The notes: a model not told the origin generated them from the sequence alone. 64,000 nucleotides of DNA from Spirochaetia bacterium (GCA_965198005.1 CBDAOI010000003.1:1-64000); one strand, 5' to 3'; positions 22,558 to 52,793 are shown, counted from the first letter of the stretch. Numbers and translations are program-made.

Positions 22558-25500
22558 ATCGACAACGACGGCCGCTTCGAGCCGCTCGCGGCGGACATGA
22601 AGCCGTACGGTTCGGGAGCCGACATCGACGCGGCCTGCGCACCGGTGCTGCCGCCGGACGCCTACTACACGGGACGGCCCGGACATACGCCAATGCCCTC
22701 CAGGTGCGGGACGCGGCCGGCGCGTTCCGCAACCGCGTGGCCGGCGTCCGGGGTCGACGCCACCGGGTGGAACTGGTCGGCTCGGTTCGGCGGTCTGGGC
22801 TACGACGGCGACCTCGACCTGTACACGGTCAACGGCATGGTCGGCGTGGCGTTCGGGTACCTACCCGGCGCGGAGTTGCTGTTGACAGGCTGACCAATAC
22901 CAAGGCGGGCAAGCCCGCTCCCAATGCTGTCGCGGAGCGGGTCGAGGTCCTGGAAGCCTCTTCGTCGGCGTTCGCCCGGAGCGGCCGCCCGCCCGCGCAA
23001 TGTCAGGCTCCAAGCCGCGCAGGCCGAGAGGTCCCCGCCACACGCTCTGATTCGAGCGTGATAATCGCGACGGCAGAGGCCCCCAGAGCGTATCCGGTGA
23101 ATCTGATCGATGAATACGACGGCACCGTACTGGTGGCGTCGCCGGCCTTCCCCGAGCTGACGACGTTCGGAGCGGTTCGGGCCGAAGCGTCGGCGCATGC
23201 CGTAGGAGCATTCGCGGAGGCGAATCGCATGGGCATTCACGTCCGGATGGGCGTTCCGGCGCCGACGCCGACGGAGGGTGATTGTGCGTACGTCGCAACG
23301 CTGACGATCGCGAAGGTGTTGCTCTACCGGGGATCCGCGACGCGCGTGTCACGTTGTCAGCAGGTCGGAGCTGGCGCGCCGCCTCAACTGGCACTTTCCG
23401 CGGTCGATCGCGTGTTCGACCTGAACCACGGCTGGCGGCTGGACCAGATCGACGCAGCGCTCGCGGCCGACGGCCTGCGGTTGGATGTAGGCGTCGTCGC
23501 CATAGATTCGGGGTCACCTGCGGCTGCGACGAACGACGGCACCTGACTGTCACGGTGGCGACGGCCGCTGAGGTGGATGGGGCACGCGAGATACCTGAAC
23601 GTGCGCTGCCACCACGTCACCGTATTCCCAGCCTACCGGCGGCAACTCACCGAGTATTCAAGGATCCCTTCGTCCGGTGTCAGGATCGTGGGCGTGGCGC
23701 CGAGGGCGGCTGCTACCAGAAGGCGGTCGAACGGGTCGTGATGCATCGGCAATTCGGATGGGCGATACCACCTATCATGCGATGGCGTTCGCCGAAGGCG
23801 ACATCGACAACGACGGCCGCTTCGAGCCGCTCGCGGCCGACATGAAGCCGTACGGTTCGGGAGCCGACATCGACGCGGCCTGGGGACCGGTGCTGCCGCC
23901 GGACGCCGGACGCCTACTACACGGGACGGCCCGGACATACGCCAATGCCCTCCAGGTGCGGGACGCGGCAGGCGCGTTCCGCAACCGCGTGGCCGGCGTC
24001 CGGCGTCGACGCCACCGGCTGGAACTGGTCGGCTCAGTTCGGCGGTCTGGGCTACGACGGCGACCTCGACCTGTACACGGTCAACGGCATGTCGGCGAGG
24101 CGTTCGGGTACCTACCCGGCGCGGAGCTGCTGTTGACAGGCTGGCCAGTACCAAGGCGGGCAAGCCCGCTCCCAATGCTGTCGCGGAGCGGGTCGAGGTC
24201 CTGGAAGCCTCTTCGTCGGCGTTCGCCCGGAGCGGCCGCCCGCCCGCAATGTCAGGCTCCAAGCCGCGCGGGCCGAGAGGTCCCGACCACACGCTCTGAT
24301 TCGAGCGTGATAATCGCGATGGCAGAGGCCCCCAGAGCGTATCCGGTGAATCTGATCGATGAATACGACGGCACCGTACTGGTGACGTCGCCGGACCTTC
24401 CCCGAGCTGACGACGTTCGGAGCGGTTCGGGCCGAGGCGTTGGCGCATGCCGTAGGAGCATTCGCGGAGGCGAATCGCGTGGGCATTCACGCCCCGATGG
24501 ACGTTCCGCCGCCGACGCCCACGGAGGGTGACAGTGCGCACGTCGCAGCGCTGACGATCGCGAAGGTGTTGCTCTACCGGGGATGCGCGACGCGCGTGTC
24601 ACGTGTCAGCAGGTCGGAGCTGGCGCGCCGCCTCAACTGGCACCTGCCGCGGTCGATCGCGTGCTCGACCTGAACCACGGCTCGCGGCTGGACCAGATCG
24701 ACCCAGCGCTCGCGGCCGTCGGCCTGCGGTTGGATGTAGGCGTCGTCGTCGCCATACATTCGGGTTCGCCTGCGGCTGCGACGAACGACGGCACCTGACT
24801 GTCACGGTGGCGGCGGCCGCGGATGTGGATGGGGCACGCGAGATACCAGAACGTGCGCTGCCACCACGTCACCGTATCCCAGCCTACCGGCGGCAACTCA
24901 CGAGTATTCAAGGATCGCTTCGTCCGGTGTCAGGATCGTGGGCGTGGCGCCGAGGGCGGCTGCTACCAGAAGGCGGTCGAACGGGTCGTGATGCATCGGC
25001 AATTCGGATGGGCGATACCACCTACCATGCGATGGCGTTCGCCGAAGGCGACATCGACAACGACGGGCGCTTCGAGCCGCTCGCGGCCGACATGATGCCG
25101 TACGGTTCGGGAGCCGACGTCGACGCGGCCTGGGGACCGGTGCTGCCGCCGGACGCCGGACGCCTACTACACGGGACGGCCCGGACATACGCCAATGCCC
25201 TCCAGGTGCGGGACGCGGCAGGCGCGTTCCGCAACCGCGTGGCCGGCGTCCGGGGTCGACGCCACCGGCTGGAACTGGTCGGCTCAGTTCGGCGGTCTGG
25301 GCTACGACGGCGACCTCGACCTGTACACGGTCAACGGCATGGTCGGCGAGGCGTTCGGGTACCTACCCGGCGCGGAGTTGCTGTTGACAGGCTGGCCAGT
25401 GCCAAGGCGGGCAAGCCCGCTCCCAATGGTGTCGCGGAGCGGGTCGAGGTCCTGGAAGTCTCTTCGTAGACGTTCGCCCGGAGCGGCCGCCCGCCCGCGA

Positions 25501-27262
25501 ATGTCAGGCTCCAAGCCGCGCGGGCCGAGAGGTCCCCGCCACACGCTCTGATTCGAGCGTGATAATCGCGACGGCAGAGGCCACCAGAGCGTATCCGGTG
25601 AATCTGATCGATGAATGCGACGGCACCGTACCGGTGACGTGGCCGGACTTCCGCGAGCTGACGACGTTCGGAGCGGTTCGGGCCGAGGCGTTGGCGCATG
25701 CCGTAGGAGCATTCGCGGAGGCGAATCGCAGGGGCATTCACGCTCCGATGGACGTGCCGGCGCCGACGCCCACGGAGGGTGATTGTGCGCACGTCGCAAC
25801 GCTGACGATCGCGAAGGTGTTGCTCTACCGGGGATGCGCGACGCGCGTGTCACGTGTCAGCAGGTCGGAGCTGGCGCGCCGTCTCAACTGGCACCTACCG
25901 CGGTCGATCGCGGGCTCAACCTGAACCACGGCTCGCGGCTGGACCAGATCGACGTAGCGGTCGCGGCCGACGGCCGGCGGTTGGATGTAGGCGTCGTCGC
26001 CATACGTTCGGGTTCGCCTGCGGCTGCGACGAACGACGACACCTGACTGTCACGGTGGCGGCGGCCGCGGAACGTGGATGGGACACGCGAGATACCTGAA
26101 CGTGCGCTGCCACCACGTCACCGTATCCCCAGCCTACCGGCGGCAACTCACCGAGTATTCAAGGATCCCTTCGTCCCGTGTCAGGATCGTGGGCGTGGCG
26201 CCGAGGGCGGCTGCTACCAGAAGGCGGTCGAACGGGTCGTGATGCATCGGCAATTCGGATGGGCGATACCACCTACCATGCGATGGCGTTCGCCGAAGGC
26301 GACATCGACAACCACGGCCGCTTCGAGCCGCTCCCGGCCGACATGAAGCTGTACCGTTCGGGGCCCGACGTCGACGCGCCCTGGGGACCGGTGCTGCCGG
26401 CGGACGCCCATGACACCGGACGCGCCCCAGATATACCCCAACACCCTGCAGCTGCGGGACGCGGCCGGCGCGTTCCGAAACCGGGTGGCCGGCGTCCGGG
26501 GTCGACGCAACCGGCTAGAACCGGTCGGCTCAGTTCGGCGATCCGGAGAAGGACGGCGACCTCGACCTGTACACGGTCAACGGCATGGTCGGCGAGGCGT
26601 TCGGCCACCTCCCCGGCGCGGAGCTGCAGTCGACAGGCTGACCAATACCAAGGCGGACAAGCCCGCTCTGGATGCTGTTGCAGAGAGAGTCGAGGTCCTG
26701 GAAGTCTCTTCGTAGGCGTTCGCCCGCGTCGGCCGCCCGCCCGCAAATGTCAGGCTCCAAGCCGCGCGGCCCGAGGGGTTCCGGCCACACCCTCTGATTC
26801 GAGCGTGATCATCCCGACGGCAGGGGCCACCGCAAATGTTGGCGTATCCGTATCCGGTGAATCTGATCGATGAATACGACGGCACCGTACTGGTGACGTC
26901 GCCGGACTTCCCCGAGCTGACGACCTTCGGAGCGGTTCGGGCCGCACCGTTGGCGCATGCCGTGGGGACATCCGAGGAGGCGATCGCGTCTCGCATTCAC
27001 GGTCGGATGGACGTTCCGGCACCGACGGCCCCTCGGAGGGTGATTGTACCTCGCAACGCTGACGGTCGCGAGAGTGATGCTCTACCGGGGATGCGGGACG
27101 CGCACGTCAGCAAGTCCGAGCTGGCGCGCCGTCTCAACTGGCACTTTCGGCCGTCGATCGCGTGCTTTGATCTGAACCACCGCTCGCGGCTGGACCCGAT
27201 CGACGCGGCGCTCGCGGCCGTCGGGCTGCGGTCGGATGTAGGCGTCGTCGCCATACGTTCGG
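22558..27262 (+). repeat. Tandem array A: ~3.8 copies of a ~1.25-kb chimeric unit (FG-GAP/CRTAC1 fragment, palindrome, frameshifted hicB, antisense vapC fragment)
   Basis: Anchor GACAAC(G/C)ACGG recurs at 22561, 23806, 25056, 26307; peptides FAEGDIDNDGRFE, GWNWSAQFG, YPVNLIDEYDGTVLVTSPDFPELTTFG, ELARRLNWH; minus strand LPMHHDPFDRLLVA. Confidence 0.92.
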
Positions 27263-27542
27263 TCACCGGTCCAGATTCCCGGAGCGGACGTCCCCTCACT
27301 GATCGAGTCGATCAAAGAGTACCAGATCCGGCACTACTACATGCTCGGCGAACTGATCTGCGTAAGCCCTCAGCTCCTTGGCTTGTATCTCCACAAGTGA
27401 AGTGTTTAGCTGCTGCGTGGTCTCATGAAGCTCAAACATCGCTTGCAGGTTCTTCAATTGGCTACAATAGAACTCGTACAGACGTGCCCACGGACCAGTC
27501 ATTCCCGACAAAATGTCTGCAGCACGATCCCTCACGCAAACG

Positions 27543-27803: not shown

Positions 27804-27880
27804 TATGCTATAGAGTTCCGGCTTGGTCGTTGGGCGGGCTCACGGACGAGCCGCTAACTGTTAAACTTGAGACGTACGCG

Positions 27881-31659: not shown

Positions 31660-32075
31660 CTGCAGTCGACAGGCTGACGCTGACGGTCGCGAAGGTGATG
31701 CTCTACCGGGGGATGCGCGACGCGCAGGTCAGCAAGTCCGAGTTGGCGCGTCGTCTCAACTGGCACTTTCCGCAGGTTGAACGCGTGCTTGATCTGAACC
31801 ACCGCTCGCGGCTGGAGCAGATCGACGCAGCGCTCGCGGCCGTAGGGCTGCGTCTGGATGTCGTGGGGGTCGCCGAGACAGTTTCACCGGCAGCCGTCGC
31901 GACCGGTGGGGCTGAAACTCCCTACGTATAGCTGCTGCACCTCCCGTGTCCGGCACCGCGATGGCGCTGGCGGTCGCCCTGCCCGACGTCGACCGCGACG
32001 GGCGCCGCGACATCGTGATCGGCAACGACTACGAGGGGTGCCCGACTCTCGTCTACCTCAACCGGCCGAGGCACT
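31660..32075 (+). repeat. Partial copy of the hicB/FG-GAP unit with an unbroken hicB C-terminal frame
   Basis: AKVMLYRGMRDAQVSKSELARRLNWHFPQVERVLDLNHRSRLEQIDAAL, then ALPDVDRDGRRDIVIGNDY. Confidence 0.75.
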
Positions 32076-32298
32076 GGAAACTGCATGCAAGAAAGTCGTC
32101 GCTGCACGGATGAAACAAAGCGGTATGATGTGGACGCTGGACGGAGCCAAGGGCATGCTGCAACTCCGCGCCTCCTTGAAGAGCCGCCGCTTCTGGGACG
32201 ACTTCAAGGGCGAGCTCCCCGCTTCGCCCCCTGAGCAAATCGACCAAATCCACTTGGAGGCAGCCTGAAGGCTACGACACTCTGGGAATGCGCGCCCC
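32075..32298 (+). mobile_element. ISKra4-like transposase C-terminal fragment and right end
   Basis: ETACKKVVAARMKQSGMMWTLDGAKGMLQLR. Confidence 0.7.
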
Positions 32299-36729: not shown

Positions 36730-37230
36730 GCTGATGATTCCGAACCAGATATCCACCTGATTCAGCCACGATGCGTACGTCGGCGTGTAGTGCACGTGGT
36801 ACCGCGGTGGCTGCGCTAACCATGCCTTCACTTTCGCATGCTTGTGCGTCGCATAGTTGTCCAGGTTATGCTCTACTGGGAGATGCGCGACCTGCAGGTC
36901 AGCAAGACCGACTTGGCGCGCCGTCTCAAGTGGTACTTTCCACAGGTTGATCGCGTGGTCGATCTGAACCAGCGATCGTGGCCGACCCAGATCGACGCAG
37001 CGGTCGGCCGCGACTGGACGTAGTTGGCGTCGCCGAAACAAGTCCACACACGGCCGTCGCGAGCGCTCAGGGCTGAGACGCACAACGTAGATCGGCTGCA
37101 CCTCCGGCTGTCAGGCGCCGCGTGCGCTGGCCGTCACCCTACCCGATATCGACCGCGACGCCCGCCGCGACATCGTGCTCTGCAACCACTACGAGGTGCT
37201 GGACTCCCGTCTACCTCAACCGGTCGCGGC
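36730..37230. repeat. IS630 fragment (minus, 36730-36865) fused to another partial hicB/FG-GAP copy (plus, 36866-37230)
   Basis: LDNYATHKHAKVKAWL on minus; MLYWEMRDLQVSKTDLARRLKWYFPQVDRVVDLN and DIDRD...DIVLCNHY on plus. Confidence 0.75.
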
Positions 37231-37503: not shown

Positions 37504-40500
37504 CTATGGATCTTGGACACCGATCTTTTGCAGTACGCTGAGCGTTGCGGCTGGAAGATTGCCGCGAACGACCAGCTCATTTTCCACGATCACTGGGATG
37601 TTTCCACCGCCAGCACGGTAATCTGCGATGGCCGGATCGGCTGGATGATCGGGCGTTAGCGGTCCTGAGAGCGAGATAATGTACTTCCCTCCTGCGCTGG
37701 TTCTGACCAAAATAGGTGCCACAATGGTGCCGGTCGTGTTTGTGCTCGCTGAGACGCCAAGCTCAAACTTGGGTTCCTGAGCGGTCTGCCGCTGGAGATC
37801 GTGAAACAACAGTTCTGTGGATGTTCGTAGACGCTCAGGCGCAAAACGTGGCGGTTCTCCCTCGAGTAGATACTCCAGTAATTCTACCCCGACGTGGCGG
37901 TCCAGCAGGCTGTGTTCGAATTTGTTCTTGAAACTACGCAGGCACCGGTAGCATGATGTGTCGCACTTCTCCCTACATCCATTCATAAGCGTGAGCGCGC
38001 GCTGAAACAGCTCTACACCATAATCGGCGAGTTCGCTGGAAAACCCGGCTCCTCCCGGCAAAGTGTCATAGAGAAAGATTTCCGCCTCAAGACCGCTCTT
38101 TCCAGCCGGTGTTAGCGCGGGCCGATATTCCGCCATCATCTCACCCGGCTCGATCTCAAGCAAGTCACATGCGGCCTTGGCCAGCGCCTCGCTCACGGTT
38201 CTCAAAGCAACGGAAGTTGAAGTGTGTCCGGGCTTCAAAGTAAGTGGTGGAGCAACACACATCGAAAACAGGGCAATGTCCGTGATGAAATCAGCGCCGA
38301 GAACGAGGTGCCTAGTGGTGCCATCTCCGTCGCAGATCAGTTTGTCGTCATCGTCCGGGTAGGGTTTGCGGTGTGCGCCGATGAGTTTCGAATCGTGAGA
38401 TGTACTGGATTCTATGCGCCCGCATTTCACACAGTAGTTATAACCAGCTCTGTTTGGTCCGGTATTCGATACGAGCAGATGCTGCCGCGCCCTCAAAACT
38501 CGGATGCGGTCGTTGATCGTCGTCCAGCCCGCCTCGTCATCGGGAGTACCCATGGTAAGCTTAGCGCGAGTAGCGTAACTCGTTTCCGGCATGTCCTCCG
38601 GTGATGTAACTTCTTCCATATCGATGGGATGGGCGAAGCCCGGGGGACGCAGCCAGTAGCGTCCTGGACCAAAAGCCTCCTCTCCCCCGCAGGCTTCGCA
38701 GTCACGCGTTTCCTTACGATTCGCTTCGCTGATCGAAAACGTTCGCGCAAAACCGCAGTTGCTGCACTCCATGTAGATGCGCCTTGAGTCCCAGGCAGCG
38801 AATCGATCGTCGGACATAACGGAGTAAATTGCCCCCGACGTGTAACACTTTCCCGAGATCCAGACCTGTTTACCGGGTGCGTACTGTGTCAGGGCGATCG
38901 GGAGTCCCTGGGAGGGTGCGAAGCGCATAATCGGCCGAAAACGAGACGACCGATCCCGGTCGAAAACGTGAAACGTGGCGACATCTGTTGGAAAAGCATA
39001 ACGAGGTAATATGCCGCAATAGAGAAGACGGTCGAGAAGCTTGCCGGGGTCTGAAGCCTGTTGCGGGCGCTCCTCGTCCTGTTCGGACGGAACCTCTGTC
39101 CCAGTACCGTCTCCGGTCTCCTCCTTCAACCAGACCCCTTCCGAATCGGATTGGATGGCATCGTCAATCGCCTTCAGGCATTCGTCTTTCATATTCTCAA
39201 GCAGATGCTCGCGGTCATCCTTTGAAAGCTCCTCGGGTATCCATGAGAGGACGCGCTCCTGCAAGTGCCCTTCATGCTCGGTAAGCCAAACCCCAAAGTC
39301 ATCTCGATTCAGTATCGACGTGCCGTTACGGAATTCAGAGACCGTACCGAGGACGGAGAATAGATCGTGTCGTTGGTCCGGGTCGATCTCTGGGAGCCGA
39401 TGCTGATGGTAATTCTGCAACAAAAAGGCCCGGATGTGACGGCGCACGATCTCGCAGTTGTCGAGTGTAAGTTTCGGATCGACGACGTCACCACGGATCA
39501 TGCCTTCGGGCTCCGAGAAGTAGTGCTCATCATGGCTGTCAGCGCTGCCGAATGCAACGACTGTGGCGACAGCGTTGCCACGGCGTCCTGCCCGTCCGGA
39601 GCGCTGCTGATAATTGGCTCGGCTTGGGGGCATGTTGCGCAAAGCTACTCCCGACAACGTGCCGATGTCGATACCGACTTCCATGGTAGTCGTGCTCGAG
39701 AGTACATCGATGGCGTTCGATTTGCTTCCCTCTCGGTCAAGCGCTATATCCTGAAAAAGCAGTTCATTTTCCTCCGCTTTGGAGAAAACATCTTCATTCT
39801 GAGGGGCATTCAATTGCGCTGTATGTTCGGCAGCGATGAGTGCCATGGGCTGCCGCGGTGGGTTGTCGAGTGCCTCCATGACCGGTCTGCGGTAGAACCC
39901 TTTCCGAGCGAGGAAGACGGCATCCAAATCCGGATCAATAGATGTGACCTTCTGGCTGCCGCAGTCGAGGCAGTACCACAGTCCTGGTACCGGCCGATGA
40001 ACGGACGTGCAGCTTGCACAATGAACCCACGTGCCATCAAACAGGAGAGTAAGCTCACTGCCCTTGAGGCGCTTGAAGCCGCCATCGGAATCCTGCGTAA
40101 ACAGCGATAGCAATGCTGGGGACCATCGACTCCAGAACATCCCATGGGCCGCCTTGTCCGCAAGGACGATGCCCATGGCCTTGAACTTCCCCTTCTGACC
40201 GCGGATGCTGGTACCCTCCGACCGTGGGCGTCTCCACCAGACAGGAGGCATTGCGCTCAGCCAGAAGCCGTGACTCTGCCAGCAGCGCAGCCAAGCCCGT
40301 GCAAGTGCAACCTTGGCTTCGACACTCTCAACAACCCCCGGAATCGTCGGAAGTCGCTCGAGCTGGGCAGTATGCTTGGATCGCTCCGCAATTGAAGCCA
40401 ACGCCAGCGCCTCAAATCCGAGGAACCGATCCTGAACCGTCGTGACAATGTTATCGAGCAAAGCCTCCGGAGGACGCTCGTTGCGAAGCTCCAAGCACAG

Positions 40501-43059: not shown

Positions 43060-43073
43060 TATTGCTCCTAATC

Positions 43074-44159
43074 CTAATCCGCCAAACGCGAGAGCCAAAC
43101 CCTCTCCTGAAGAAACCGCTCCTCCGTTTCGGACTCCATCACAGGTAGGCAGTACGACAGGAGGCTGTTCTCCCGCGGTACGACACGTCCGAAGACCATG
43201 AGACGCCGCTGCGACCACTTCGGTAGAGGAGAAAAGAAATCCAAGTGTATGCCGTCTGCGGCATCCCGCCGACGATAGAGCTGTGGCTTATTGAGGCAAC
43301 AGTCTATCGCCATTTGCAGATGCCAAGCCACATCGCAACCCCGCCATCGCGTCGTCTCGAAAGGCAAATCCAGCAGCCGGACAACTGATCCCTCCTCAAT
43401 AGCGGCGAAACACCAAATGGGCGGGCCGAATTCCTGTGGCCGTCTTGCGACGAAGACACCAGTCTGCCGTTTGAGTGTCGTCCATCGTCCAGGGTAGTAC
43501 GTGACAGGCTGCATCGGATCGAGAATTCGAAGCTCGCTTACAGCACCGCTTCGCGGCTGGGCTGCGAGCTGCGCTCTAACGCGTTCAAGCATGTTCTCGG
43601 CCGATTCGGATTTCGGACTTCTCATCCAGGCCCTGTCGGACATCTGCTGCAAGCCATGCTCGCGCAGTTCGGTGGGCAGCTCTTCATCCTGCGACGATGC
43701 GATGACGCGTGTGCAACCTTCGTAAGTGATGCGCGATGCCACGGAATGCGGCAGAAAGGAGTCCTGATCGGGAACGATTCCAAGAAGGAAAATGCTGCCG
43801 CTCGGGCGGACAACGAAGCTCGGAGGGGCCGCGAAGATCCAGGTTCCCTTGACCGACGGATCGTCCGTAGCGACATCGTTTAGTTCGAGGAGATCTCCGC
43901 CCACAATAAGGCCCTCGATAACCTCGTCCACGCGCTCAGGCAGTAGCGTCTCGTCGTTCGACAAGTATTGGAGGGACTCGAGTAGCGAGACGCGCAGCGT
44001 AGTGCGAGAACACGGGCAGTAGATGCCTGCACTCCGTCGAAGCATACCCGCTAGAAACACATCGTCGACAGGATCATGAGAATTCCCCGACAGACCAATC
44101 GTCTGCCTACTTTCCGAAAGCACATCATGCGGATCTATCTTGGTGATCACCACTTCCAC
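43074..44159 (-). CDS. druD: Druantia DruD-like protein (361 aa)
   Basis: Size and position immediately upstream of druE in a coupled operon; assigned by synteny only. Confidence 0.6.
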   Translation of the reverse strand: MEVVITKIDPHDVLSESRQTIGLSGNSHDPVDDVFLAGMLRRSAGIYCPCSRTTLRVSLLESLQYLSNDETLLPERVDEVIEGLIVGGDLLELNDVATDDPSVKGTWIFAAPPSFVVRPSGSIFLLGIVPDQDSFLPHSVASRITYEGCTRVIASSQDEELPTELREHGLQQMSDRAWMRSPKSESAENMLERVRAQLAAQPRSGAVSELRILDPMQPVTYYPGRWTTLKRQTGVFVARRPQEFGPPIWCFAAIEEGSVVRLLDLPFETTRWRGCDVAWHLQMAIDCCLNKPQLYRRRDAADGIHLDFFSPLPKWSQRRLMVFGRVVPRENSLLSYCLPVMESETEERFLQERVWLSRLAD

Positions 44160-47116
44160 CTCGGCAGTATACTGAATGATCCATTGGGCACGTTGTTGGC
44201 GCTCAAGAGCGCCAGCAGCCGGGCACCCCGCAGAATGGCCGGGGTCTCTCCGACCTTACGGAGAAGGGCGTCCAGCCTCGATCCGTACACACTCGACACG
44301 CGATGTGGCTGACTGGCCAGCCGGAGGGAAAAGTCGCACAGCTCCCTGTTCGTGCAGATACGGTACTGGCTCGCCAAGTCTGCATACCACTGCGAAGCCC
44401 GGGTCATGTCGCCATCCATCTTCACGTGATCGCGGCGCAACGCAGCAGCATAGTTTGGTCTTATTGCGACGGCTCGCTCCACAGATTGCTGCAGCTCTTC
44501 AACAGCCTTTCGCGAGACTCGGTTACTTCTGAAAGCATCCTCCACTCTTGCCCAGCGTTCGCCACATAACCTCAGATAGACTGCACGAACGTAGCCGTTC
44601 ATCAACTGCTCATGCCTGGCGTTGGCTACGAACCCGAACCGACGAGCGTCCTGCCACAGCGCAAGTAGATGCAACGCATCTGCCACCGTGACGGAACCAT
44701 CCTGAAGCTCAGAGAAGGTAGGTCGGATACCTAGGCCTTCTAGTCCCCGCGTGCTCACATTGCTGACCATCAACGTGTCGGAATGATGTTTGATCAGTAT
44801 CGCACTATCGTGTCCGGAACGCCCTCGGTCCGGACCATGGATTCCCGGATCACCCATCCGTACAGTGTGCTTAGCAATAAAGAGTCCCCCAGGAGGTTCG
44901 TCAACCGACATTCCTGTTAGCGCTTCTTGGACGGTCAGTCGCTTGCCGCGAAGAGGCCGATCCATGCTAAAGAACCGAACGTTCGGCTCAGACTCTTCGT
45001 GTCCCGTGTCGTCGATCAGCCGGACGACGATCCTATCACGATCGCCGTGCACTACCCAGCGTACGGGAGGAGACCGACGTTCAAATCGAAAGAGACATTC
45101 CCCGAGTTCCTCTCCTGCGATCAGCAGCTGCCCACTAGTTGCCTCGAGATATGCAGCGGTACACTTCTCGTCATTCAAGAATCGATTGAACCTCGAACGC
45201 CAAGCATCGGGCTTGATCGGTAGTCTCATGCGTCCGCCGATCTGCTCTGAGAAAAGCTCTTGACGGTCGTTCCCTTGGAGTGAGACGGAAAGAGATACGG
45301 AGTGACTCTCTGGACCGAATACTGATAAGGTTACTTCGTTCCTCCAAAAAGTATCGAGATCAGCGTGTTCCGGGTCGAGACTCACAATCAAGGCTCGATG
45401 AGAGACGAATCCGGGGGTCCAAGCCTCGGGCTCTCGCACGTTAACCTCAATGAACCCTTCTGCCGCAGGCGTTTGTACGATCGAATCCAAAGAAGCACTT
45501 CTGCGAGCCTTTATCGTAAGCAGGTGCTTCCCTACGGTGAGTGGCAAAATACGTACAAAAACCGGCTGGCCTACCTCTCCTGCTGCAATAACTGTCTCTA
45601 CGCCGTCATCTATTCTGAGTGCATACGTGTCTACGGGGTGATCGTGCACTATTCCGAAGCAGGGTGCCTCTGTGGTCAGCCACTCACTGTTACCTTCCCC
45701 ATCCCAGTTGCGGGCGGGAAGTCCTGCCGCCCAGACCCGAATCGTACGCGCCACTTGCAAGCCAAGTTGGTTCAGCCACCGAGTATCATCTACGGATACC
45801 TCCGAAGGTATCAGAAGACGAAAGGACCTTATCCCGGCACAATCGATCCTGCATGTGCTGATGCCGACGTGAGGTTCTGGAGACTCTCCTGTTGTGAGAA
45901 CGATGTAGCTAAAGCCAGGGCGAACGACACGACCAATGATCTCACGGGCGGTGCCGTCTCCCGCGACCCGGAACAACCAGATCGGACCAGGACTGAGACG
46001 GCATTCGGTCTCCAGAAGATTATCGATTACACCTTGGGACCGATCAAACTGTATAAGCGGCTTTGTCAAATCAGGCCAGGATCTCAGAATGCCCTTTCTA
46101 TTGCCCGAGAGAATCCACCCCGCCGGCTTAATGTCATCGGCACCGTTGAGACAGCATCGAGTGGACTTCAGGAAGGTATGAATATCAGGGCTCAATGTCG
46201 CGACGTCTCTAAATGACGGAATCTCCATGCGGACAGACCAAGTACCAGCGCCCCTATGGCCCAACACGACACTCGGTCGAATACGAAACGGCGCCGCTTC
46301 CAGCGCCTCCTGGAGCGCTCGCTGAGGAAACCACAGTCTTCCGCGTGGCCCGGCACCACGACCAATTCCGACAAAGCGATCAGTGACAACTTGTCGCGTC
46401 TCTTTCAGCCACGTGCGTGCACTTCTAACCTCCTCCATATTATGGACAATACGCTTAAGCGTGGGCTGATAAATTCCTGATGGTGCGTCCGTTTCAGCCG
46501 GTGTCGAATCGAGGAGCGATAGTACAATTCGCCCTATTAGATCCTCTTGCTGAAGAAACTCCTGGAAGCGTAACGACGTGTGGCGCTCGTTACTGGCTAG
46601 TAATCGCCCAATCGCTGTTGGAGCTCGCGTCTCTAAACCCGCAAGACGAAATCGTAGATGGTAGAGGGCTCGGGCAAGCTGCTCCTGGAGATAACGAGGC
46701 ACAATCGCATGCGTAATTGGCCACGCAATTATTCTGAAATGATCGGCCCACGGACCGGACGGTACTACTGCTTCATAGGCCTTCTGAAACTTTCTGAACC
46801 ACGGCACGAGTCGGTAGCGGTCCCTATACTCCCACTCCGGCGTCTGCTTCTCAAACGACGCCCAGTACTCGTCTCCACTATAGGAGTATCCGCGCTCTGT
46901 CGCATAGATCACCCAGAGAAGCCAGTGCCGTGAAGATACCTCGAATCTAAGCTCTGACCGAATCAGCGACGAGAGTTCATTCAATTCTACGCTATTCAGA
47001 CCATGCTCTAAGGCAAATATAGGCTGCCCGATTCCTGCACGAATACGTGCAAGCGACTCAAAGTGCCGCTCAAGCCGTTCCTGCCATGCGTCAGGAGTCC
47101 TCGCCGTCGCTAACAT
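44147..47116 (-). CDS. Druantia-associated 989-aa protein occupying the druB/druC position
   Basis: Overlaps both neighbours; lies between druA and the druD-like gene. Confidence 0.55.
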   Translation of the reverse strand: MLATARTPDAWQERLERHFESLARIRAGIGQPIFALEHGLNSVELNELSSLIRSELRFEVSSRHWLLWVIYATERGYSYSGDEYWASFEKQTPEWEYRDRYRLVPWFRKFQKAYEAVVPSGPWADHFRIIAWPITHAIVPRYLQEQLARALYHLRFRLAGLETRAPTAIGRLLASNERHTSLRFQEFLQQEDLIGRIVLSLLDSTPAETDAPSGIYQPTLKRIVHNMEEVRSARTWLKETRQVVTDRFVGIGRGAGPRGRLWFPQRALQEALEAAPFRIRPSVVLGHRGAGTWSVRMEIPSFRDVATLSPDIHTFLKSTRCCLNGADDIKPAGWILSGNRKGILRSWPDLTKPLIQFDRSQGVIDNLLETECRLSPGPIWLFRVAGDGTAREIIGRVVRPGFSYIVLTTGESPEPHVGISTCRIDCAGIRSFRLLIPSEVSVDDTRWLNQLGLQVARTIRVWAAGLPARNWDGEGNSEWLTTEAPCFGIVHDHPVDTYALRIDDGVETVIAAGEVGQPVFVRILPLTVGKHLLTIKARRSASLDSIVQTPAAEGFIEVNVREPEAWTPGFVSHRALIVSLDPEHADLDTFWRNEVTLSVFGPESHSVSLSVSLQGNDRQELFSEQIGGRMRLPIKPDAWRSRFNRFLNDEKCTAAYLEATSGQLLIAGEELGECLFRFERRSPPVRWVVHGDRDRIVVRLIDDTGHEESEPNVRFFSMDRPLRGKRLTVQEALTGMSVDEPPGGLFIAKHTVRMGDPGIHGPDRGRSGHDSAILIKHHSDTLMVSNVSTRGLEGLGIRPTFSELQDGSVTVADALHLLALWQDARRFGFVANARHEQLMNGYVRAVYLRLCGERWARVEDAFRSNRVSRKAVEELQQSVERAVAIRPNYAAALRRDHVKMDGDMTRASQWYADLASQYRICTNRELCDFSLRLASQPHRVSSVYGSRLDALLRKVGETPAILRGARLLALLSANNVPNGSFSILPRWKW

Positions 47117-48363
47117 GCTCCAGTCTCGTATCCTCCTGCTTCGCTCGCGTTCATCGCATCAGTTTGTATGGTCCGACCATGCTTCTCAATAACGTCCATT
47201 AGGTCATCACGCGTCCATTGCTGATATTCAAGTCTCCGTCGAGAACGTGGAAGTATCCAACGCTCAAGCGCCAGATCAGCGACCTCACTGACATCCAGAA
47301 GTGATGAAAGATCCGGACTGCCTGTGCCCGTAAGAAGCATCTTCGTCGCGTTGGATGCAAGCAAGGAGATAAAGACTTCTCTTTGAATACCGTGACGAAG
47401 CAAGTCGTCATTGAAGCCCAGCTCCTCCAAAGCCGCACGGGTTGTGCGGAGCCGCCAGTTCGGCCCTTGTCCAAATTGGTGGAGATCTGCGTACGGATGT
47501 CCAATTCGACGAAGGTAGTCACGCAGCTCTGCAAACAGCTCGTCAGGGATGTGAAAGTGTCCCCATCCGTTTGTGTAACCGATAGAACGAAAGTAATAGG
47601 CGCCGTCCAATCTTAGTCGGTTGTAAACCGAAGATCGGCCCAGTGCAGATGTCGTAGTCACAGCAAGAAGCCGTGCATTCTTCTGTTTCCGGGAAATAAT
47701 ACCCGTCGTCTTGCCGTATGTATGCTCAAAGTCTTCATATACGTTACGAGTGCGGATAAGGCACGCCACCATTTTCCCGCCAAGCAAAAAGCTATATGGT
47801 GGTAGAGATCCTAAGACATAGGCGTCCATAATGTTAACAAGACGCGCTCGTCTACCGTGCACGTCCCAACCGATCATGCTATCGCGCACCGAGAGATTGA
47901 AGACCGGATCCCCGATCGCAATTAGTCCGATTATTTTGCCATTATTCTTGTCCCATACAAGATATCGCAGGCGTCTACCAAATCCGCTTGATACTGGAAC
48001 TGACCAGGTGAGGGACGCCATTCTAAAGAGATCTGACTGCCATGTCCCTGCGAGAATCCTCTCAAGGACAGGCGATATTTTGGTCGGCTCGACCTCGCTC
48101 CCTGTTGCAAAATACTTGATTAGTCTTGGGACACGGTGTGATAGAAAATCACAGTTTCTGTTCTGACGGTCAAGCCGTTGTGAGCTATGAAGCGCGCGAA
48201 TATTGTCTTTCGTACAACTATTGACTCTAAGGGAACCATCTGCTGATCTCTCAAATCCAAGCGTATGGAGATGACCACGTATCTTTCTCTTAAGGGTGGC
48301 CTCGCGGAACGTGACGTGAATCACTGGGTGACTGATCTGCGTCATACTATGGCTCTCAGTCAC
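47110..48363 (-). CDS. druA: Druantia DruA (DUF4338)
   Basis: GRRLRYLVWD, GDPVFNLSVRDSMIGW, MDAYVLGSLPPYSFLLGGKMVA, TTTSALGRSSVYNRL. Confidence 0.88.
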   Translation of the reverse strand: MTESHSMTQISHPVIHVTFREATLKRKIRGHLHTLGFERSADGSLRVNSCTKDNIRALHSSQRLDRQNRNCDFLSHRVPRLIKYFATGSEVEPTKISPVLERILAGTWQSDLFRMASLTWSVPVSSGFGRRLRYLVWDKNNGKIIGLIAIGDPVFNLSVRDSMIGWDVHGRRARLVNIMDAYVLGSLPPYSFLLGGKMVACLIRTRNVYEDFEHTYGKTTGIISRKQKNARLLAVTTTSALGRSSVYNRLRLDGAYYFRSIGYTNGWGHFHIPDELFAELRDYLRRIGHPYADLHQFGQGPNWRLRTTRAALEELGFNDDLLRHGIQREVFISLLASNATKMLLTGTGSPDLSSLLDVSEVADLALERWILPRSRRRLEYQQWTRDDLMDVIEKHGRTIQTDAMNASEAGGYETGAC

Positions 48364-48853: not shown

Positions 48854-51800
48854 CCAGGTGCGGGACGCGGCAGGCGCGTTCCGTAACTGCGTGGCCGGCG
48901 TCCGGGGTCGACGCCACCGGCTGGAACTGGTCGGCTCAGTTCGGCGGTCTGGGCTACGACGGCGACCTCGACCTGTACGCGGTCAACGGCATGGTCGGCG
49001 AGGCGTTCGCGTACCTACCCGGCGCGGAGCTGCTGTTGACAGGCTGGCCAATGCCAAGGCGGACAAGCCCGCTCCCAATGCTGTCGCGGAGCGGGTCGAG
49101 GTCCTGGAAGCCTCTTCGTCGGCGTTCGCCCGGAGCGGCCGCCCGCCGGCAATGTCAGGCTCCAAGCCGCGCGGGCCGAGAGGTCCCCGCCACACGCTCT
49201 GATTCGAGCGTGATAATCGCGATGGCAGAGGCCCCCATAGCGTATCCGGTGAATCTGATCGATCAATACGACGGCACCGTACTGGTGACGTCGCCGGACT
49301 TCCCCGAGCTGACGACGTTCGGAGCGGTTCGGGCCGAGGCGTTGGCGCATGCCGTAGGAGCATTCGCGGAGGCGAATCGCAGGGGCATTCACGCCCGGAT
49401 GGATGTTCCGGCGCCGACGCCCACGGAGGGTGATTGTGCACACGTCGCAACGCTGACGATCGTGAAGGTGTTGCTCTACCGGGGCTCCGCGACGCGCGTG
49501 TCACGTGTCAGCAGGTCGGAGCTGGCGCGCCGCCTCAACTGGCACCTGCCGCGGTCGATCGCGGGCTCGACCTGAACCATGGCTCGCGGCTGGACCAGAT
49601 CGACGTAGCGCTCGCGGCCGACGGCCTGCGGTTGGATGTAGGCGTCGTCGCCATACGTTCGGGTTCACCTGCGGCTGCGACGAGCGATGGCACCTGACTG
49701 TCACGGTGGCGGCGGCCGCGGATGTGGATGGGGCACGCGAGATACCTGAACGTGCGCTGCCACCACGTCACCGTATCCAGCCTACCGGCGGCAACTCACC
49801 GGATATTCAAGGATCCCTTCGTCCGGTGTCAGGATCGTGGCCGTGGCGCCGAGGGCGGCTGCTACCAGAAGGCGGTCGAACGGGTCGTGATGCATCGGCA
49901 ATTCGGATGGGCGATACCACCTGCCATGCGATGGCGTTCGCCGAAGGCGACATCGACAACGACGGGCGCTTCGAGCCGCTCCCGGCGGACGTGAAGCCGT
50001 ACGGTTCGGGAGCCGACGTCGACGCGGCCTGGGGACCGGTGCTGCCGCCGGACGCCGGACGCCTACTACACGGGACGGCCCGGACATACGCCAATGCCCT
50101 CCAGGTGCGGGACGCGGGCCGGCGCGTTCCGCAACCGCGTGGCCGGCGTCCGGCGGCGACGCCACCGGCTGGAACTGGTCGGCTCAGTTCGGCGGTCTGG
50201 GCTACGATGGCGACCTCGACCCGTACACGGTCAACGGCATGGTCGGCGAGGCGTTCGGGTACCTACCCGGCGCGGAGCTGCTGTTGACAGGCTGGCCAGT
50301 GCCAAGGCGGGCAAGCCCGCTCCCGATGCTGTCGCGGAGCGGGTCGAGATCCTGGAAGCCTCTTCGTCGGCGTTCCCCCGGAGCGGCCGCACGCCCGCAA
50401 TGTCAGGCTCCAAGCCGCGCGGGCCGAGAGGTCCCCGCCACACGCTCTGATTCGAGCGTGATAATCGCGATGGCAGAGGCCCCCAGAGCGTATCCGGTGA
50501 ATCTGATCGATGAATACGACGGCACCGTACTGGTGGCGTGGCCGGACTTCCCGGAGCAGACGACGTTCGGAGCGCAGCGGGCCGAGGCGCTGGCGCATGC
50601 CGTAGGAGCATTGGCGGAGGCGAATCGCGTGGGTATTCACGCTCCGATGGACGTGCCGGCGCCGACGCCCATGGACGGTGATTGCGCGGACGTTGCAACG
50701 CTGACGATCGCGAAGGTGTTGCTCTACCGGGGAGGCGCGACGCGCGTGTCACGTGTTAGCAGGTCGGAGCTGGCGCGCCGTCTCAACTGGCACTTTCCGC
50801 GGTCGATCGCGGGCTCGACCTGAACCACGGCTCGCGGCTGGACCAGATCGACGCAGCGCTCGCGGCCGACGGCCTGCGGTTGGATGTAGGCGTCGTCGCC
50901 ATCCGTTCGGGTTCACCTGCGACTGCGACGAGCGATGGTGCCTGACTGTCACGGTGGCGGCGGCCGCGGATGTGGATGGGGCACGCGAGATACCTGAACG
51001 TGCGCTGCCACCACGTCACCGTATCCCAGCCTACCGGCGGCAACTCACCGAGTATTCAAGGATCCCTTCGTCCGGTGTCAGGATCGTGGGCGTGGCGCCG
51101 AGGGCGGCTGCTACCAGAAGGCGGTCGAACGGGTCGTGATGCATCGGCAATTCGGATGGGCGATACCACCTATCATGCGATGGCGTTCGCCGAAGGCGAC
51201 ATCGACAACGACGGCCGCTTCGAGCCGCTCGCGGCGGACATGAAGCCGTACGGTTCGGGAGCCGACATCGACGCGGCCTGCGCACCGGTGCTGCCGCCGG
51301 ACGCCTACTACACGGGACGGCCCGGACATACGCCAATGCCCTCCAGGTGCGGGACGCGGCCGGCGCGTTCCGCAACCGCGTGGCCGGCGTCCGGCGTCGA
51401 CGCCACCGGCTGGAACTGGTCGGCTCAGTTCGGCGGTCTGGGCTACGACGGCGACCTCGACCTGTACGCGGTCAACGGCATGGTCGGCGAGGCGTTCGGG
51501 TACCTACCCGGCGCGGAGCTGCTGTCGACAGGCTGGCCAGTGCCAAGGCGGGCAAGCCCGCTCCCAATGCTGTCGCGGAGCCGGTCGAGGTCCTGGAAGC
51601 CTGTTCGTCGGCGTTCGCCCGGAGCGGCCGCCCGTCAGGCTCCAAGCCGCGCGGGCCGAGAGGTCCCCGCCACACGCTCTGATTCGAGCGTGATAATCCC
51701 GATGGCAGAGGCCCCCAGAGCGTATCCGGTGAATCTGATCGATGAATACGACGGCACAGTACTGGTGGCGTGGCCGGACTTCCCCGAGCTGACGACGTTC

Positions 51801-52793
51801 GGAGCGGATCGGGCCGAGGCGTTGGCGCATGTCGTAGGAGCATTCGCGGAGGCGAATCGCATGGGCATTCACGCTCCGATGGACGTGGCGGCGCCGACGC
51901 CCACGGTGATTGTGCGCACGTCGCAACGCTGACGGTCACGAAGGTGTTGCTCTACCGGGGCTCCGCGACGCGCGTGTCACGTGTCAGCAGGTCGGAGCTG
52001 GCGCGCCGCCTCAACTGGCAGTTTCGGCCGTCGATCGCGTGCTTGACCTGAACCGCGGCTCGCGCCTGGACCAGATCGACGCAGCGCTCGTGGCCGACGG
52101 CCTGCGGTTGGATGTAGGCGTCGCCGCCATACATTCGGGTTCACCTGCGGCTGCGACGAACGACGGCACCTGACTGTCACGGTGGCGGCGGCCGCTGATG
52201 TGGATGGGGCACGCGAGATACCTGAACGTGCGCTGCCACCACGTCACCGTATCCAGCCTACCGGCGGCAACTCACCGAGTATTCAAGGATCCCTTCGTCC
52301 GGTGTCAGGATCGTGGGCGTGGCGCCGAGGGCGGCTGCTACCAGAAGGCGGTCGAACGGGTCGTGATGCATCGGCAATTCGGATGGGCGATACCACCTAC
52401 CATGCGATGGCGTTCGCCGAAGGCGACATCGACAACCACGGCCGCTTCGAGCCGCTCCCCGGCGGACATGAAGCCGTACGGTTCGGGAGCCGACGTCGAC
52501 GCGCCCTCGGGACCGGTGCTGCCGCCGGACGCCTACTACACGGGACGGCCCGGAGATACGCCAATGCCCTCCAGGTGCGGGACGCGGCCGGCGCGTTCCG
52601 CAACCGCGTGGCCGGCGTCCGGCGTCGACGCCACCGGCTGAAACTGGTCGGTTCAGTTCGGCGGTCTGGGCTACGACGGCGACCTCGACCTGTACACGGT
52701 CAACGGCATGGTCGGCGAGGCGTTGGGTACCTACCCGGCGCGGAGCTGCTGTTGACAGGCTGGCCAGTGCCAAGGCGGGCAAGCCCGCTCCCA
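48854..52793 (+). repeat. Tandem array B: ~3.2 copies of the same 1.25-kb unit
   Basis: Anchor recurs at 49955, 51204, 52431; same peptides and frameshifts as array A. Confidence 0.92.

What the first reader, a model, noticed from the sequence alone, without database searches (positions are those of the whole stretch)
22558..52793. Amplified 1.25-kb chimeric pseudogene satellite in two arrays
Seen: ~7 tandem units, each joining an FG-GAP/CRTAC1 fragment, hicB and an antisense vapC C-terminus. Six units share the frame-breaking insertion GCGCGTGTCACGT(G/T)..., absent from the copies at ~27100 and ~31720. Inference: amplification happened after inactivation, so the DNA or RNA rather than a protein is what is being multiplied. 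Kilobase non-coding tandem arrays are uncommon in bacteria.
Basis: partly seen in the sequence, partly recalled or inferred. Interest (0 to 1): 0.75.

Follow-up and report, generated by a model that had tools for sequence, protein, structure and literature searches.

The report
Decaying tandem array of dead genes
Two rows of a 1.25-kb repeat built from pieces of three dead genes flank an anti-phage gene cluster in an uncultured bacterium, and they look like the slowly decaying remains of one old burst of DNA copying rather than a working element.

Summary
Six full 1.25-kb units, one older divergent unit and two partial units form two direct arrays (22545-27265 and 48854-52804). They flank 21.6 kb of IS elements and defence genes, including type I Druantia.

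Each unit joins:
- codons 412-531 of a CRTAC1-like (FG-GAP/ASPIC-UnbV) gene
- about 215 nt of unknown origin
- a nearly whole hicB
- the last 45 codons of a vapC gene, antisense

The chimera was found only in this genome; relatives carry the three genes separately.

The six units are 93-96% alike and form an unresolved star tree. Their differences fall evenly on the codon positions of hicB. A frameshift and a loss of the original start are shared. So one burst of copying followed inactivation, and each unit then decayed alone.

My best reading (0.6) is a fossil of tandem amplification with no present function.

Two things do not fit:
- A 135-nt stretch across the vapC/CRTAC1 joint is almost invariant (3 variable columns; 0 of 5000 permutations as low).
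- In public-run contigs the unit is 20-40 times deeper than its flanks, against 6-7 expected.

Interest is moderate to low.

The parts
22545..27265 (+). Array 1: 155-nt partial unit (22545-22699), full units 22700-23951, 23952-25201 and 25202-26448, then the older divergent unit 26449-27265 (about 84% identical, no vapC piece). The last ~100 nt of the third unit already follow the divergent type.
48854..52804 (+). Array 2: full units 48854-50100, 50101-51342 and 51343-52570, then a 234-nt partial unit 52571-52804. It starts 490 nt upstream of druA.
51165..51527 (+). Example of the CRTAC1-like (FG-GAP) fragment, residues 412-532 of a relative's 692-aa protein. It runs across the unit boundary as I phased it. 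A 1-nt insertion shared by all units shifts the frame inside it.
   Evidence: and direct reading
50280..50493 (+). Example of segment 'X', about 215 nt of unknown origin. Its first ~75 nt are shared with the C2 relic, where IS-like sequence follows. The IS reading rests on a motif I recalled and is weak.
50470..50942 (+). Example of the hicB pseudogene. A new ATG lies 7 codons upstream, the N-domain is intact, there is a net +6 insertion, then a shared 1-nt deletion and a stop. In this unit a 117-codon frame remains.
51040..51165 (-). Example of the vapC (PIN) 3' fragment, residues 88-130, antisense to hicB. It abuts the CRTAC1 fragment with no spacer. The other five copies are 23639-23767, 24904-25017, 26140-26268, 49788-49916 and 52258-52392.
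49826..49960 (.). Nearly invariant 135-nt core across the vapC/CRTAC1 joint, with 3 variable columns among six units. The same core lies at 23677-23811, 24927-25061, 26178-26312, 51075-51209 and 52302-52436. Within it is an 81-nt run with no change.
16832..17090 (+). Old relic: CRTAC1 piece, start of X and hicB N-terminus, cut off by an IS copy at 17092-18019 (98.9% identical to C2:186920-187847).
31677..32077 (+). Old relic: hicB 3' half (95% amino-acid identity to the relative's HicB, frame intact) followed by CRTAC1 residues 361-403. An IS3-family element lies directly upstream.
36844..37386 (+). Old relic: hicB 3' part followed by CRTAC1 residues 367-460, next to an IS630-like fragment and directly before druE.
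53861..54123 (+). Old relic: CRTAC1 residues 457-511 joined directly to a middle piece of hicB.
37504..48363 (-). Context, not part of the repeat: type I Druantia between the arrays. DruE is 37504-43218, DruD 43074-44159, an unmatched 989-aa ORF 44147-47116, and DruA 47110-48363.

Best explanation
The arrays are a fossil of tandem segmental amplification and have no function of their own today.

In an IS-ridden defence island, a patch of dead DNA had been built by successive illegitimate joins. It held a CRTAC1-like gene fragment, an unidentified ~215-nt piece, a hicB antitoxin gene already frameshifted, and the tail of a convergent vapC. A first duplication joined the vapC tail to the start of the CRTAC1 fragment. 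Homologous unequal exchange between the copies then raised the number to at least six in a short time (inferred).

After that the copies stopped exchanging sequence. Each collected its own 1.3-3.1% of substitutions and small indels. The row was broken into two arrays, or part of it was copied, and IS elements, a group II intron and defence genes accumulated between and around them (the order of events is inferred).

The only likely present consequence is that the two direct arrays offer kilobases of 95% homology. Recombination between them would delete or duplicate the 21.6-kb Druantia-bearing segment (inferred, not shown).
For: 1. Shared lesions come before copying. The 1-nt frameshift, the loss of the original ATG and the net +6 insertion are in 6 of 6 units.

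2. Decay since copying is neutral. Variable sites fall 17/24/22 on hicB codon positions (9/14/13 in the N-domain). Consensus against an intact relative gives 17/18/41. Four of 6 units carry further private frameshifts or lack the ATG. No frame is kept in all six units outside the invariant stretch.

3. There was one burst and no later homogenisation. I counted 120 singleton against 34 informative sites with no consistent partition. In the ML tree 0 of 4 inner branches are supported, end branches are 0.013-0.031, and the two arrays are monophyletic in 0% of 200 bootstrap trees. At 58 of 78 variable hicB columns the majority letter equals the outgroup state.

4. The three parts are ordinary separate genes in relatives. 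In the listed rows of the search of 41 genomes, no place outside this genome joins two parts. The vapC/CRTAC1 joint pattern and the insertion pattern had 0 exact matches in the metagenome and genome collections. BLASTN found nothing in plasmids or phages.

5. Older relics of the same chimera lie at 16.8, 31.7, 36.9 and 53.9 kb and on C2. They are cut by IS copies, which shows a long local history of joining, copying and decay. The hicB/CRTAC1(358) joint is shared with a congeneric genome.

6. No signs of function were found. There is no Rfam hit in the arrays. There are 0 promoter-like and 0 terminator-like sites in 48400-53000. Fold z-scores of the invariant core are +0.47 and +0.57. Change is not adenine-specific. 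None of the genome's 46 tyrosine-recombinase matches and neither of its 2 IS91-type transposase matches lies in the window.

7. The DNA is real. Contigs of public runs bridge both outer borders of array 1 and cover the vapC/CRTAC1 joint. Of the 31 alternative letters in those contigs that fall in the six units, 24 are letters that another unit carries at the same column.
Against: 1. Variation is uneven. Diversity among units is 1.5-4% in the vapC/CRTAC1/X part and 5.4-8% in hicB. The older copy differs from the consensus at a more even 8-13%, with one peak of 20%.

2. A 135-column window across the vapC/CRTAC1 joint has 3 variable columns, and 0 of 5000 permutations were as low. The 81-nt invariant run exceeds the 99.9th percentile (70) of 5000 permutations. 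A pure neutral star does not predict this.

3. In contigs of three runs from two studies, unit-internal pieces have depth 104-113 (X1), 131-143 (X2) and 81-178 (X3). Single-copy pieces next to the array have depth 2-7. The ratio is roughly 20-40 where 6-7 is expected. Seven of 31 alternative letters are in no assembled unit. Either more copies exist than were assembled, or the flanks belong to a minority strain.

4. Tandem amplifications in bacteria are described as transient and reversible (abstract starts of 10.64898/2026.03.19.712897 and PMC11721125 in the listing). Survival of six copies long enough to diverge by 5% needs weak selection or low recombination, and I did not show either.
Confidence: 0.6

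Rival explanations
1. The repeat is a selected non-coding element. The nearly invariant 135-nt core at the unit joint would be a protein-binding or recombination site, or part of an RNA, and copy number would be kept up by selection or by a selfish copying mechanism. True copy number in nature would then be 20 or more.
For: The cold core has 3 variable columns in 135, and 0 of 5000 permutations were as low. There is an 81-nt invariant run. Diversity differs five-fold along the unit, and the older copy mirrors this only partly. Depth is 3-5 times what the assembly predicts in three runs of two studies, and 7 of 31 variant letters are not in the assembly. Unit pieces are present in runs of three studies.
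Against: The tree is a star with no concerted evolution. The core does not fold better than shuffles. There is no Rfam family, promoter-like or terminator-like site. The same part of vapC shows no extra synonymous constraint in 8 intact orthologues: 0.262 against 0.238 and 0.250. The unit was not found in 40 relatives or in two public collections. The depth excess can be a strain mixture, because island flanks vary between strains.
Confidence: 0.13
2. The burst was selected for dosage of a truncated HicB: the HicA-binding N-domain without a working DNA-binding domain. It would have acted as an orphan antitoxin, and the copies decayed once the need passed.
For: The 7-nt insertion restores the frame lost by a 1-nt deletion that the older copy still shows uncorrected. 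A 117-codon frame with a new ATG and a complete N-domain survives in 2 of 6 units, and the ATG is in 4 of 6. The genome has 10 HicA_toxin matches at E up to 0.01, 9 of them over the Pfam cut-off. Dosage selection is the usual cause of tandem amplification (abstract starts).
Against: There is no sign of constraint since the burst (9/14/13 on N-domain codon positions). The outgroup copy and 2 units have ACG at the would-be start (and direct reading). No promoter-like site was found. A 7-nt insertion restores a frame by chance one time in three. No hicA lies in the window.
Confidence: 0.1
3. The two arrays are kept because they act as long direct repeats that let cells lose or multiply the Druantia-bearing 21.6-kb segment, like the repeats flanking amplifiable units in Streptomyces.
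For: Two arrays in direct orientation bracket the segment, with up to 3.7 kb of about 95% identity.
Against: I saw no junction or depth evidence for deletion or duplication of the segment, because only array 1 was laid on reads. A single repeat pair would do, so this does not explain six copies. It is more likely a side effect than a cause.
Confidence: 0.07
4. The units are silent donor cassettes for gene conversion into an expressed CRTAC1-like surface protein gene, like the vls silent cassettes of Lyme disease Borrelia.
For: The structure is a tandem, promoterless array of fragments of a large secreted-protein family. Earlier notes of this scan call the organism a spirochaete (not tested by me).
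Against: There is no near-identical expression site. The best matches to the fragment are 81-83% over at most 140 nt in the one intact paralogue that BLASTN reached (C4:2230450-2232228) and 87-90% in another pseudogene; a second intact paralogue (C1:26178-27977) was reached only by the nhmmer profile. The vls cassettes are described as about 90% identical to vlsE (abstract start of PMC11499132). The CRTAC1 piece is the less variable part of the unit and carries a shared frameshift.
Confidence: 0.02
5. The arrays are an assembly artefact.
For: I could not see raw long reads. No listed contig spans a whole array.
Against: Public-run contigs bridge both outer borders of array 1 and cover the unit joint. 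Of 31 alternative letters, 24 match other units. Units differ mainly by substitutions (154 substitution columns against 41 gap columns, transitions 60 to transversions 57), which is unlike read error. The two arrays have different unique flanks.
Confidence: 0.03

Closest known systems
Gene duplication-amplification (tandem amplification by unequal homologous exchange) in bacteria
   Same: Head-to-tail copies of one segment share a single novel joint, here vapC residue 88 to CRTAC1 residue 412. The pattern fits one rapid rise in copy number.
   Different: Such arrays are described as transient, reversible and driven by dosage of a working gene (abstract starts of PMC11721125 and 10.64898/2026.03.19.712897, seen in the listing). 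Here the unit holds no working gene, and the copies have survived long enough to differ by 3.5-6.6%.
Eukaryotic satellite DNA
   Same: It is a long non-coding tandem repeat derived from other sequences, with older decayed copies around younger arrays.
   Different: Copy number is tiny. There is no concerted evolution: the tree is a star and private changes dominate. No chromosomal role is evident. What I say of satellites is recalled, apart from titles and abstract starts.
Prokaryotic 'satellites' surveyed by Subirana and Messeguer (PMC6749651; passages read)
   Same: Tandem repeats in a prokaryote genome, partly non-coding.
   Different: In the passages I read, most prokaryote satellites are short and many lie in genes for amino-acid repeats. 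The 'long' repeats there are over 30 nt, and the families named have units of up to about 250 nt. This unit is 1.25 kb. I did not read that paper's supplementary lists.
vls silent-cassette arrays of Lyme disease Borrelia (abstract start of PMC11499132)
   Same: A contiguous array of promoterless gene fragments about 90-96% alike.
   Different: There is no cognate expression site, the variation is not in the surface-protein piece, and the frames are broken.
Amplifiable units of DNA flanked by direct repeats in Streptomyces (recalled, no paper seen)
   Same: Direct repeats bracket a segment that could be amplified or deleted by recombination.
   Different: No amplification or deletion of the bracketed segment was observed here, and the repeats are themselves arrays.
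Earlier finding of this scan e1-3137387 (another genome): amplified hairpin-repeat and pseudogene relic
   Same: It was read as the decayed, tandemly copied remains of a locus with no coding capacity.
   Different: The content differs (REP-type hairpins and a transposase). I did not check that finding.

Membership tests
Tandem segmental amplification (duplication-amplification) | Head-to-tail copies of one segment sharing one novel joint | tested here: met
   Six copies share the same vapC(88)/CRTAC1(412) joint at 23767, 25017, 26268, 49916, 51165 and 52392. Spacing is 1228-1252 nt.
Tandem segmental amplification (duplication-amplification) | Copies (near-)identical and copy number unstable | tested here: not met
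   Pairwise identity is 93.4-96.5% and the tree is a star. Instability could not be measured. The depth excess is ambiguous.
HicB antitoxin (E. coli HicB type) | Full-length similarity to a solved HicB, and a hicA neighbour in the intact relative | tested here: met
   The relative's protein matches 6hpb/6u0i HicB at E 9e-10 over residues 3-135. HicA_toxin PF07927 (E 2e-8) lies directly upstream. Pfam and NCBIfam models did not recognise the HicB itself.
HicB antitoxin (E. coli HicB type) | Intact reading frame in the units | tested here: not met
   A shared 1-nt deletion truncates the HTH domain in 6 of 6 units. Four of 6 have further breaks or no ATG.
VapC / PIN-domain toxin | Complete PIN domain with its N-terminal acidic residues | tested here: not met
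   Only residues 88-131 of 132 are present. The intact orthologue has PF01850 at E 5e-10.
CRTAC1-like FG-GAP / ASPIC-UnbV protein | FG-GAP repeats plus the C-terminal UnbV_ASPIC domain | tested here: not met
   The unit holds residues 412-531 only, with FG-GAP_3 at E 0.0019, below the cut-off. The intact relative has FG-GAP_3 x5 and UnbV_ASPIC.
Silent-cassette antigenic variation (vls-like) | An expression site about 90% or more identical to the cassettes | tested here: not met
   Identity to the intact paralogue that BLASTN reached is 81-83% over at most 140 nt.
Silent-cassette antigenic variation (vls-like) | Variation concentrated in the antigen-coding part, in frame | tested here: not met
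   The CRTAC1 part has the lower diversity (2.8-4.1%) and a shared frameshift.
Integron cassette array | An integron integrase next to the array, and attC sites between cassettes | tested here: not met
   None of the genome's 46 tyrosine-recombinase matches lies in the window. No strong inverted repeat lies at the unit joints. attC models were not available.
Diversity-generating retroelement template/variable repeats | Differences confined to adenines of one copy | tested here: not met
   Among 117 singleton changes, those from A, C, G and T are 20/200, 40/409, 39/443 and 18/196 of consensus bases.
Satellite DNA in the eukaryotic sense | Concerted evolution (homogenisation) of units | tested here: not met
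   There are 120 singleton against 34 informative sites, and 0 of 4 inner branches are supported. Only the 135-nt core is uniform.
Known RNA family | A match to an Rfam model | tested here: not met
   The only matches at E up to 1 in 16000-56000 are two group II intron models at 29237-29906.

The most novel reading that the evidence does not exclude
This would be a bacterial counterpart of satellite DNA: a 1.25-kb non-coding chimeric repeat present in natural populations at some 20-40 copies per genome, several times what the assembly holds. Its 135-nt core at the unit joint would be held invariant because it is the site at which a host or mobile protein binds or recombines, so that the repeat copies itself or is kept as a structural part of a defence island.
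Probability: 0.1. Interest if true: 0.75.

Novelty: new member of a known kind. Interest (0 to 1): 0.35.

Why it matters
If the main reading is right, this is a well-preserved natural example of what becomes of a tandem amplification that is not lost. It has a dated order of events: joins, then inactivation, then a burst, then independent decay. It sits in a genome that tolerates junk DNA, and it warns annotators that the ORFs called across these units are not genes.

It also places kilobases of direct homology on both sides of a Druantia system, which is a plausible route to losing or multiplying that system.

If the minority reading is right (excess copies and a selected core), it would be a rare case of a selected or selfish long non-coding tandem repeat in bacteria.

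Tried and rejected
- **RNA evidence.** No RNA holder was listed among the 11 runs found, so expression could not be examined.
- **Joints.** Contig joints inside array 1 (skips of 972-3723 nt) have sides of only 20-21 letters (a further 62-nt skip has a side of 30). I did not use them.
- **Parts without cover.** Parts of the stretch with no contig cover in some runs mean nothing.
- **Pattern scans.** Exact-pattern scans of metagenome contigs with the joint and the insertion, and of genome contigs with the joint, gave 0 hits.
- **Plasmids and phages.** BLASTN in distant mode gave no match.
- **Rfam, promoters, terminators.** Nothing in the arrays.
- **RNA folding.** The invariant core has z +0.47 and +0.57. 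Segment X has z -1.69 and -1.99, which is weak, and I did not pursue it.
- **Frames kept in all units.** My first script merged frames and was useless. The second found none outside the invariant stretch.
- **Origin of segment X.** No relative matched it, tblastn with HicA found nothing in the window, and ORFs of the C2 copy suggest an IS end only through a motif I recalled. It stays unknown.
- **Flanking ORFs.** ORFs at 17881-22379, 33095-34291, 36114-36647 and 52258-55268 had no hits that passed a curated cut-off or named a function in Pfam, PADLOC, NCBIfam or PHROGs.
- **Recombinases.** No tyrosine recombinase or IS91-type transposase lies in the window.
- **Gene conversion from older copies.** I tested this as the source of the higher hicB diversity and rejected it: the majority letter equals the outgroup at 58 of 78 variable columns, the minority letter at 13, and neither at 7.
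- **Transcription-linked mutation in hicB.** C>T 13 against G>A 7 and C>G 10 against G>C 6. This is suggestive only.
- **An element inherited from vapC.** Rejected as the cause of the cold core. Synonymous change is 0.262 in codons 88-132 against 0.238 and 0.250 elsewhere in 8 orthologues.
- **A common left breakpoint.** The left ends at 48854, 16830 and 53905 share no upstream sequence, and at the protein level they start at residues 475, 478 and 457.
- **Druantia inserted into a young unit.** This does not fit, because the relic on its other side is of the old type.
- **Earlier findings.** Searching by sequence gave nothing.

Full report
**1. What is there**

The window is the first 64 kb of contig C3 of a 4.89-Mb, 66% G+C genome in four contigs. 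Earlier notes of this scan call the organism a sponge-associated spirochaete. I did not test that.

Direct-repeat families with 6-9 copies at spacings of 1228-1252 nt sit exactly where the finding says. TRF missed them only because its longest period is 500.

BLASTN of one unit against the genome and an nhmmer profile of six units define two arrays in the same orientation:
- Array 1 (22545-27265): a 155-nt partial unit, three full units, then a fourth copy that is only about 84% identical.
- Array 2 (48854-52804): three full units and a 234-nt partial unit.

**2. What a unit is made of**

I ran tblastn with intact genes from related genomes. In order, each unit holds:
- residues 412-531 of a 692-aa CRTAC1-like protein, whose intact form has FG-GAP_3 x5, FG-GAP and UnbV_ASPIC
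- about 215 nt that I could not place
- residues 4-150 of a 156-aa HicB
- on the other strand, residues 88-131 of a 132-aa VapC

The vapC piece abuts the next CRTAC1 piece without a spacer.

The HicB assignment rests on two things. There is a full-length match to solved E. coli HicB (E 9e-10). A HicA_toxin gene lies directly upstream in the relative. Pfam and NCBIfam do not recognise this HicB. The VapC orthologue has a PIN domain. There is no hicA or vapB piece.

**3. Where else it occurs**

In 41 related genomes, 22 (this one included) match some part of the unit. In the rows listed, no place outside this genome joins two parts: CRTAC1 paralogues, one hicAB and one vapBC locus match separately. 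Another 25 matches were not listed.

Exact patterns from the joint and from the insertion had no match in the metagenome and species-genome collections. BLASTN found nothing in plasmids or phages.

Inside the genome the full chimera exists only in these arrays. Older partial copies lie at 16832-17090, 31677-32077, 36844-37386 and 53861-54123, and on C2 at 591139-591906. Several are cut by IS copies. The joint between the end of hicB and CRTAC1 residue ~358 is shared with a congeneric genome, so it is old. The vapC/CRTAC1 joint is confined to the six young units.

**4. Order of events**

Against intact hicB, all six young units share three changes:
- a 13-nt deletion that removed the ATG
- a 1-nt deletion after the NWHFP codons

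The insertion is not frame-breaking. With a 1-nt loss in the preceding G run it adds a net 6 nt, and the frame resumes. The older copy has the 1-nt loss without the insertion. The 1-nt deletion further on is shared by the six units and the older copy, and it gives a stop seven codons later.

A new ATG seven codons upstream is present in 4 of 6 units. A 117-codon frame (complete N-domain, broken HTH) survives in 2 of 6.

Differences among units fall 17/24/22 on codon positions (p 0.54). Consensus against an intact relative gives 17/18/41 (p 0.0007). So coding constraint ended before the copies began to diverge.

**5. History of the copies**

- Pairwise identity is 93.4-96.5%. There are 120 singleton and 34 informative sites with no consistent grouping.
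- The ML tree with the older copy as outgroup is a star. None of 4 inner branches is supported, end branches are 0.013-0.031, and the two arrays were monophyletic in 0% of 200 bootstrap trees.
- At 58 of 78 variable hicB columns the majority letter is the outgroup state.

This is one burst, followed by independent decay without homogenisation. The two arrays come from the same burst.

Among 117 singleton changes, transitions and transversions are about equal (60:57), and 36 are G/C interchanges. That is what a strongly G+C-maintaining genome would fix in unconstrained DNA (my inference).

**6. Signs of function sought and not found**

- Rfam gives only a group II intron elsewhere.
- There are no promoter-like or terminator-like sites.
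- No frame is kept in all units outside the invariant stretch.
- Change is not adenine-specific.
- No tyrosine recombinase or IS91-type transposase lies in the window.
- No CRTAC1 gene is near-identical enough to be an expression site. The two intact paralogues examined (C4:2230450-2232228, C1:26178-27977) match at 81-83% where BLASTN reached them.

The genome's six other multi-copy kilobase-period tandem arrays are coding: five lie in giant repeat-protein ORFs and one is a row of outer-membrane-protein paralogues. Two further repeats are a three-copy tandem gene family and an 8.6-kb two-copy duplication whose ORFs I did not identify. So this genome duplicates readily, and this is the only multi-copy array I found with no coding capacity.

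**7. What does not fit**

*Uneven diversity.* It is 1.5-4% in the vapC/CRTAC1/X part and 5.4-8% in hicB. A 135-column window across the vapC/CRTAC1 joint has three variable columns (0 of 5000 permutations as low). It contains an 81-nt run with none.
- The older copy differs from the consensus more evenly.
- The core does not fold unusually.
- The same part of vapC shows no extra synonymous constraint in eight intact orthologues.

I have no explanation beyond local constraint, local homogenisation or a cold spot.

*Depth in public-run contigs.* Only contigs were available, for four runs from three studies. The best holder may be the source sample.
- Contigs bridge the left border (21800-22587, depth 3.3) and the right border (27119-28200, depth 5.0).
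- The divergent copy has depth 4.6-7.4.
- Unit-internal contigs, including one across the joint, have depth 104-113 (X1), 131-143 (X2) and 81-178 (X3).

That is 20-40 times single copy where 6-7 is expected. Of the 31 alternative letters that fall in the six units, 24 are carried by another assembled unit. This shows the inter-unit differences are real. Seven are in no assembled unit. Either more copies exist than were assembled, or these island flanks belong to a minority strain of a more abundant species. I could not tell which.

**8. Context**

Between the arrays lie:
- a PDC-S15-type FRG/pentapeptide gene
- a group II intron RNA
- IS3, IS21-like and IS630-like pieces
- two old relics
- a type I Druantia operon: DruA E 2e-196, DruD E 1e-130, DruE E 0

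STAND/NACHT genes, a methylase and more IS lie outside. The arrays therefore bracket a defence segment with kilobases of 95% homology. Recombination between them would delete or duplicate it. This is inference only.

**9. Comparison with what is known**

The structure has the form of a bacterial duplication-amplification. Those are described as transient and dosage-driven (abstract starts), whereas this one is old and holds no working gene.

It resembles satellite DNA in form but lacks concerted evolution. The passages I read of a survey of prokaryote satellites describe short arrays and much shorter units (PMC6749651).

It fails the tests for silent-cassette arrays, integron cassettes and retroelement templates.

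A similar 'amplified pseudogene relic' was noted earlier in this scan on other DNA (e1-3137387; not checked by me).

**10. Verdict**

Its suggestion of a selected DNA or RNA is not supported, but the invariant core and the depth excess keep it from being excluded.

My best reading is a fossil of one neutral or once-selected burst of tandem copying (0.6).

Noticed in passing
window 29237-29906 (-): Group II intron RNA: domains 1-4 (RF02005, 155 bits, E 7e-45) and the domain 5/6 model (34 bits, below its gathering score), only about 670 nt apart end to end, so there is no room for a reverse-transcriptase ORF. Its 3' end overlaps the predicted start of the FRG/pentapeptide (PDC-S15) gene at 27881-29254.
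   Followed up: no
window 37504-48363 (-): Type I Druantia operon with DruA, DruD and DruE recognised by PADLOC. The 989-aa ORF at 44147-47116, in the DruB/DruC position, matched no model in Pfam, PADLOC or NCBIfam.
   Followed up: partly
window 58058-63486 (-): A 1342-aa NACHT protein close to the antiphage EruA model (866 bits, under the 1000-bit cut-off) lies next to a PDC-S01 AAA/DUF4143 gene. About 0.66 kb of direct repeat (93-97%) at 55690-56348 and 63414-63977 brackets the pair.
   Followed up: no
window 22700-52570 (public-run contigs laid on 21800-28200): Unit-internal contigs are 20-40 times deeper than single-copy pieces beside the array in three runs of two studies. Seven of 31 alternative letters are in no assembled unit.
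   Followed up: partly
L008 1363-1638 (+) (relative G015): In one relative the vapBC locus is a 91-codon fusion of the vapB N-terminus with the same C-terminal ~45 codons of vapC that the units keep. This is a second, independent survival of just that end of the gene.
   Followed up: partly
G000 C3:453636-461100; C4:995374-1001698; C4:2286335-2293421; C4:1457862-1465192; C4:25192-29403: Five further tandem arrays with periods of about 640-1284 nt and 5-11 copies at 86-97% identity lie inside very long ORFs (up to 3148 codons), presumably repeat-domain surface proteins.
   Followed up: partly
L011 10100-15200 (G000 C2:598124-602746): There are four tandem copies (period ~1198, 86% identical) of a gene for a probable outer-membrane beta-barrel protein. 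Some are truncated. They lie 6 kb from the C2 relic of the chimeric unit.
   Followed up: no
window 32348-32860: An IS21-like fragment is repeated at five or more other places in the genome (89-96% identical). One copy lies about 2.3 kb from the C2 relic, so the 31.7-kb relic and the C2 relic look like parts of one duplicated segment.
   Followed up: no
window 18020-18133 and 18395-18508: A 114-nt direct repeat (97%) 375 nt apart, also found on C2 and elsewhere on C3, lies beside an IS copy.
   Followed up: no
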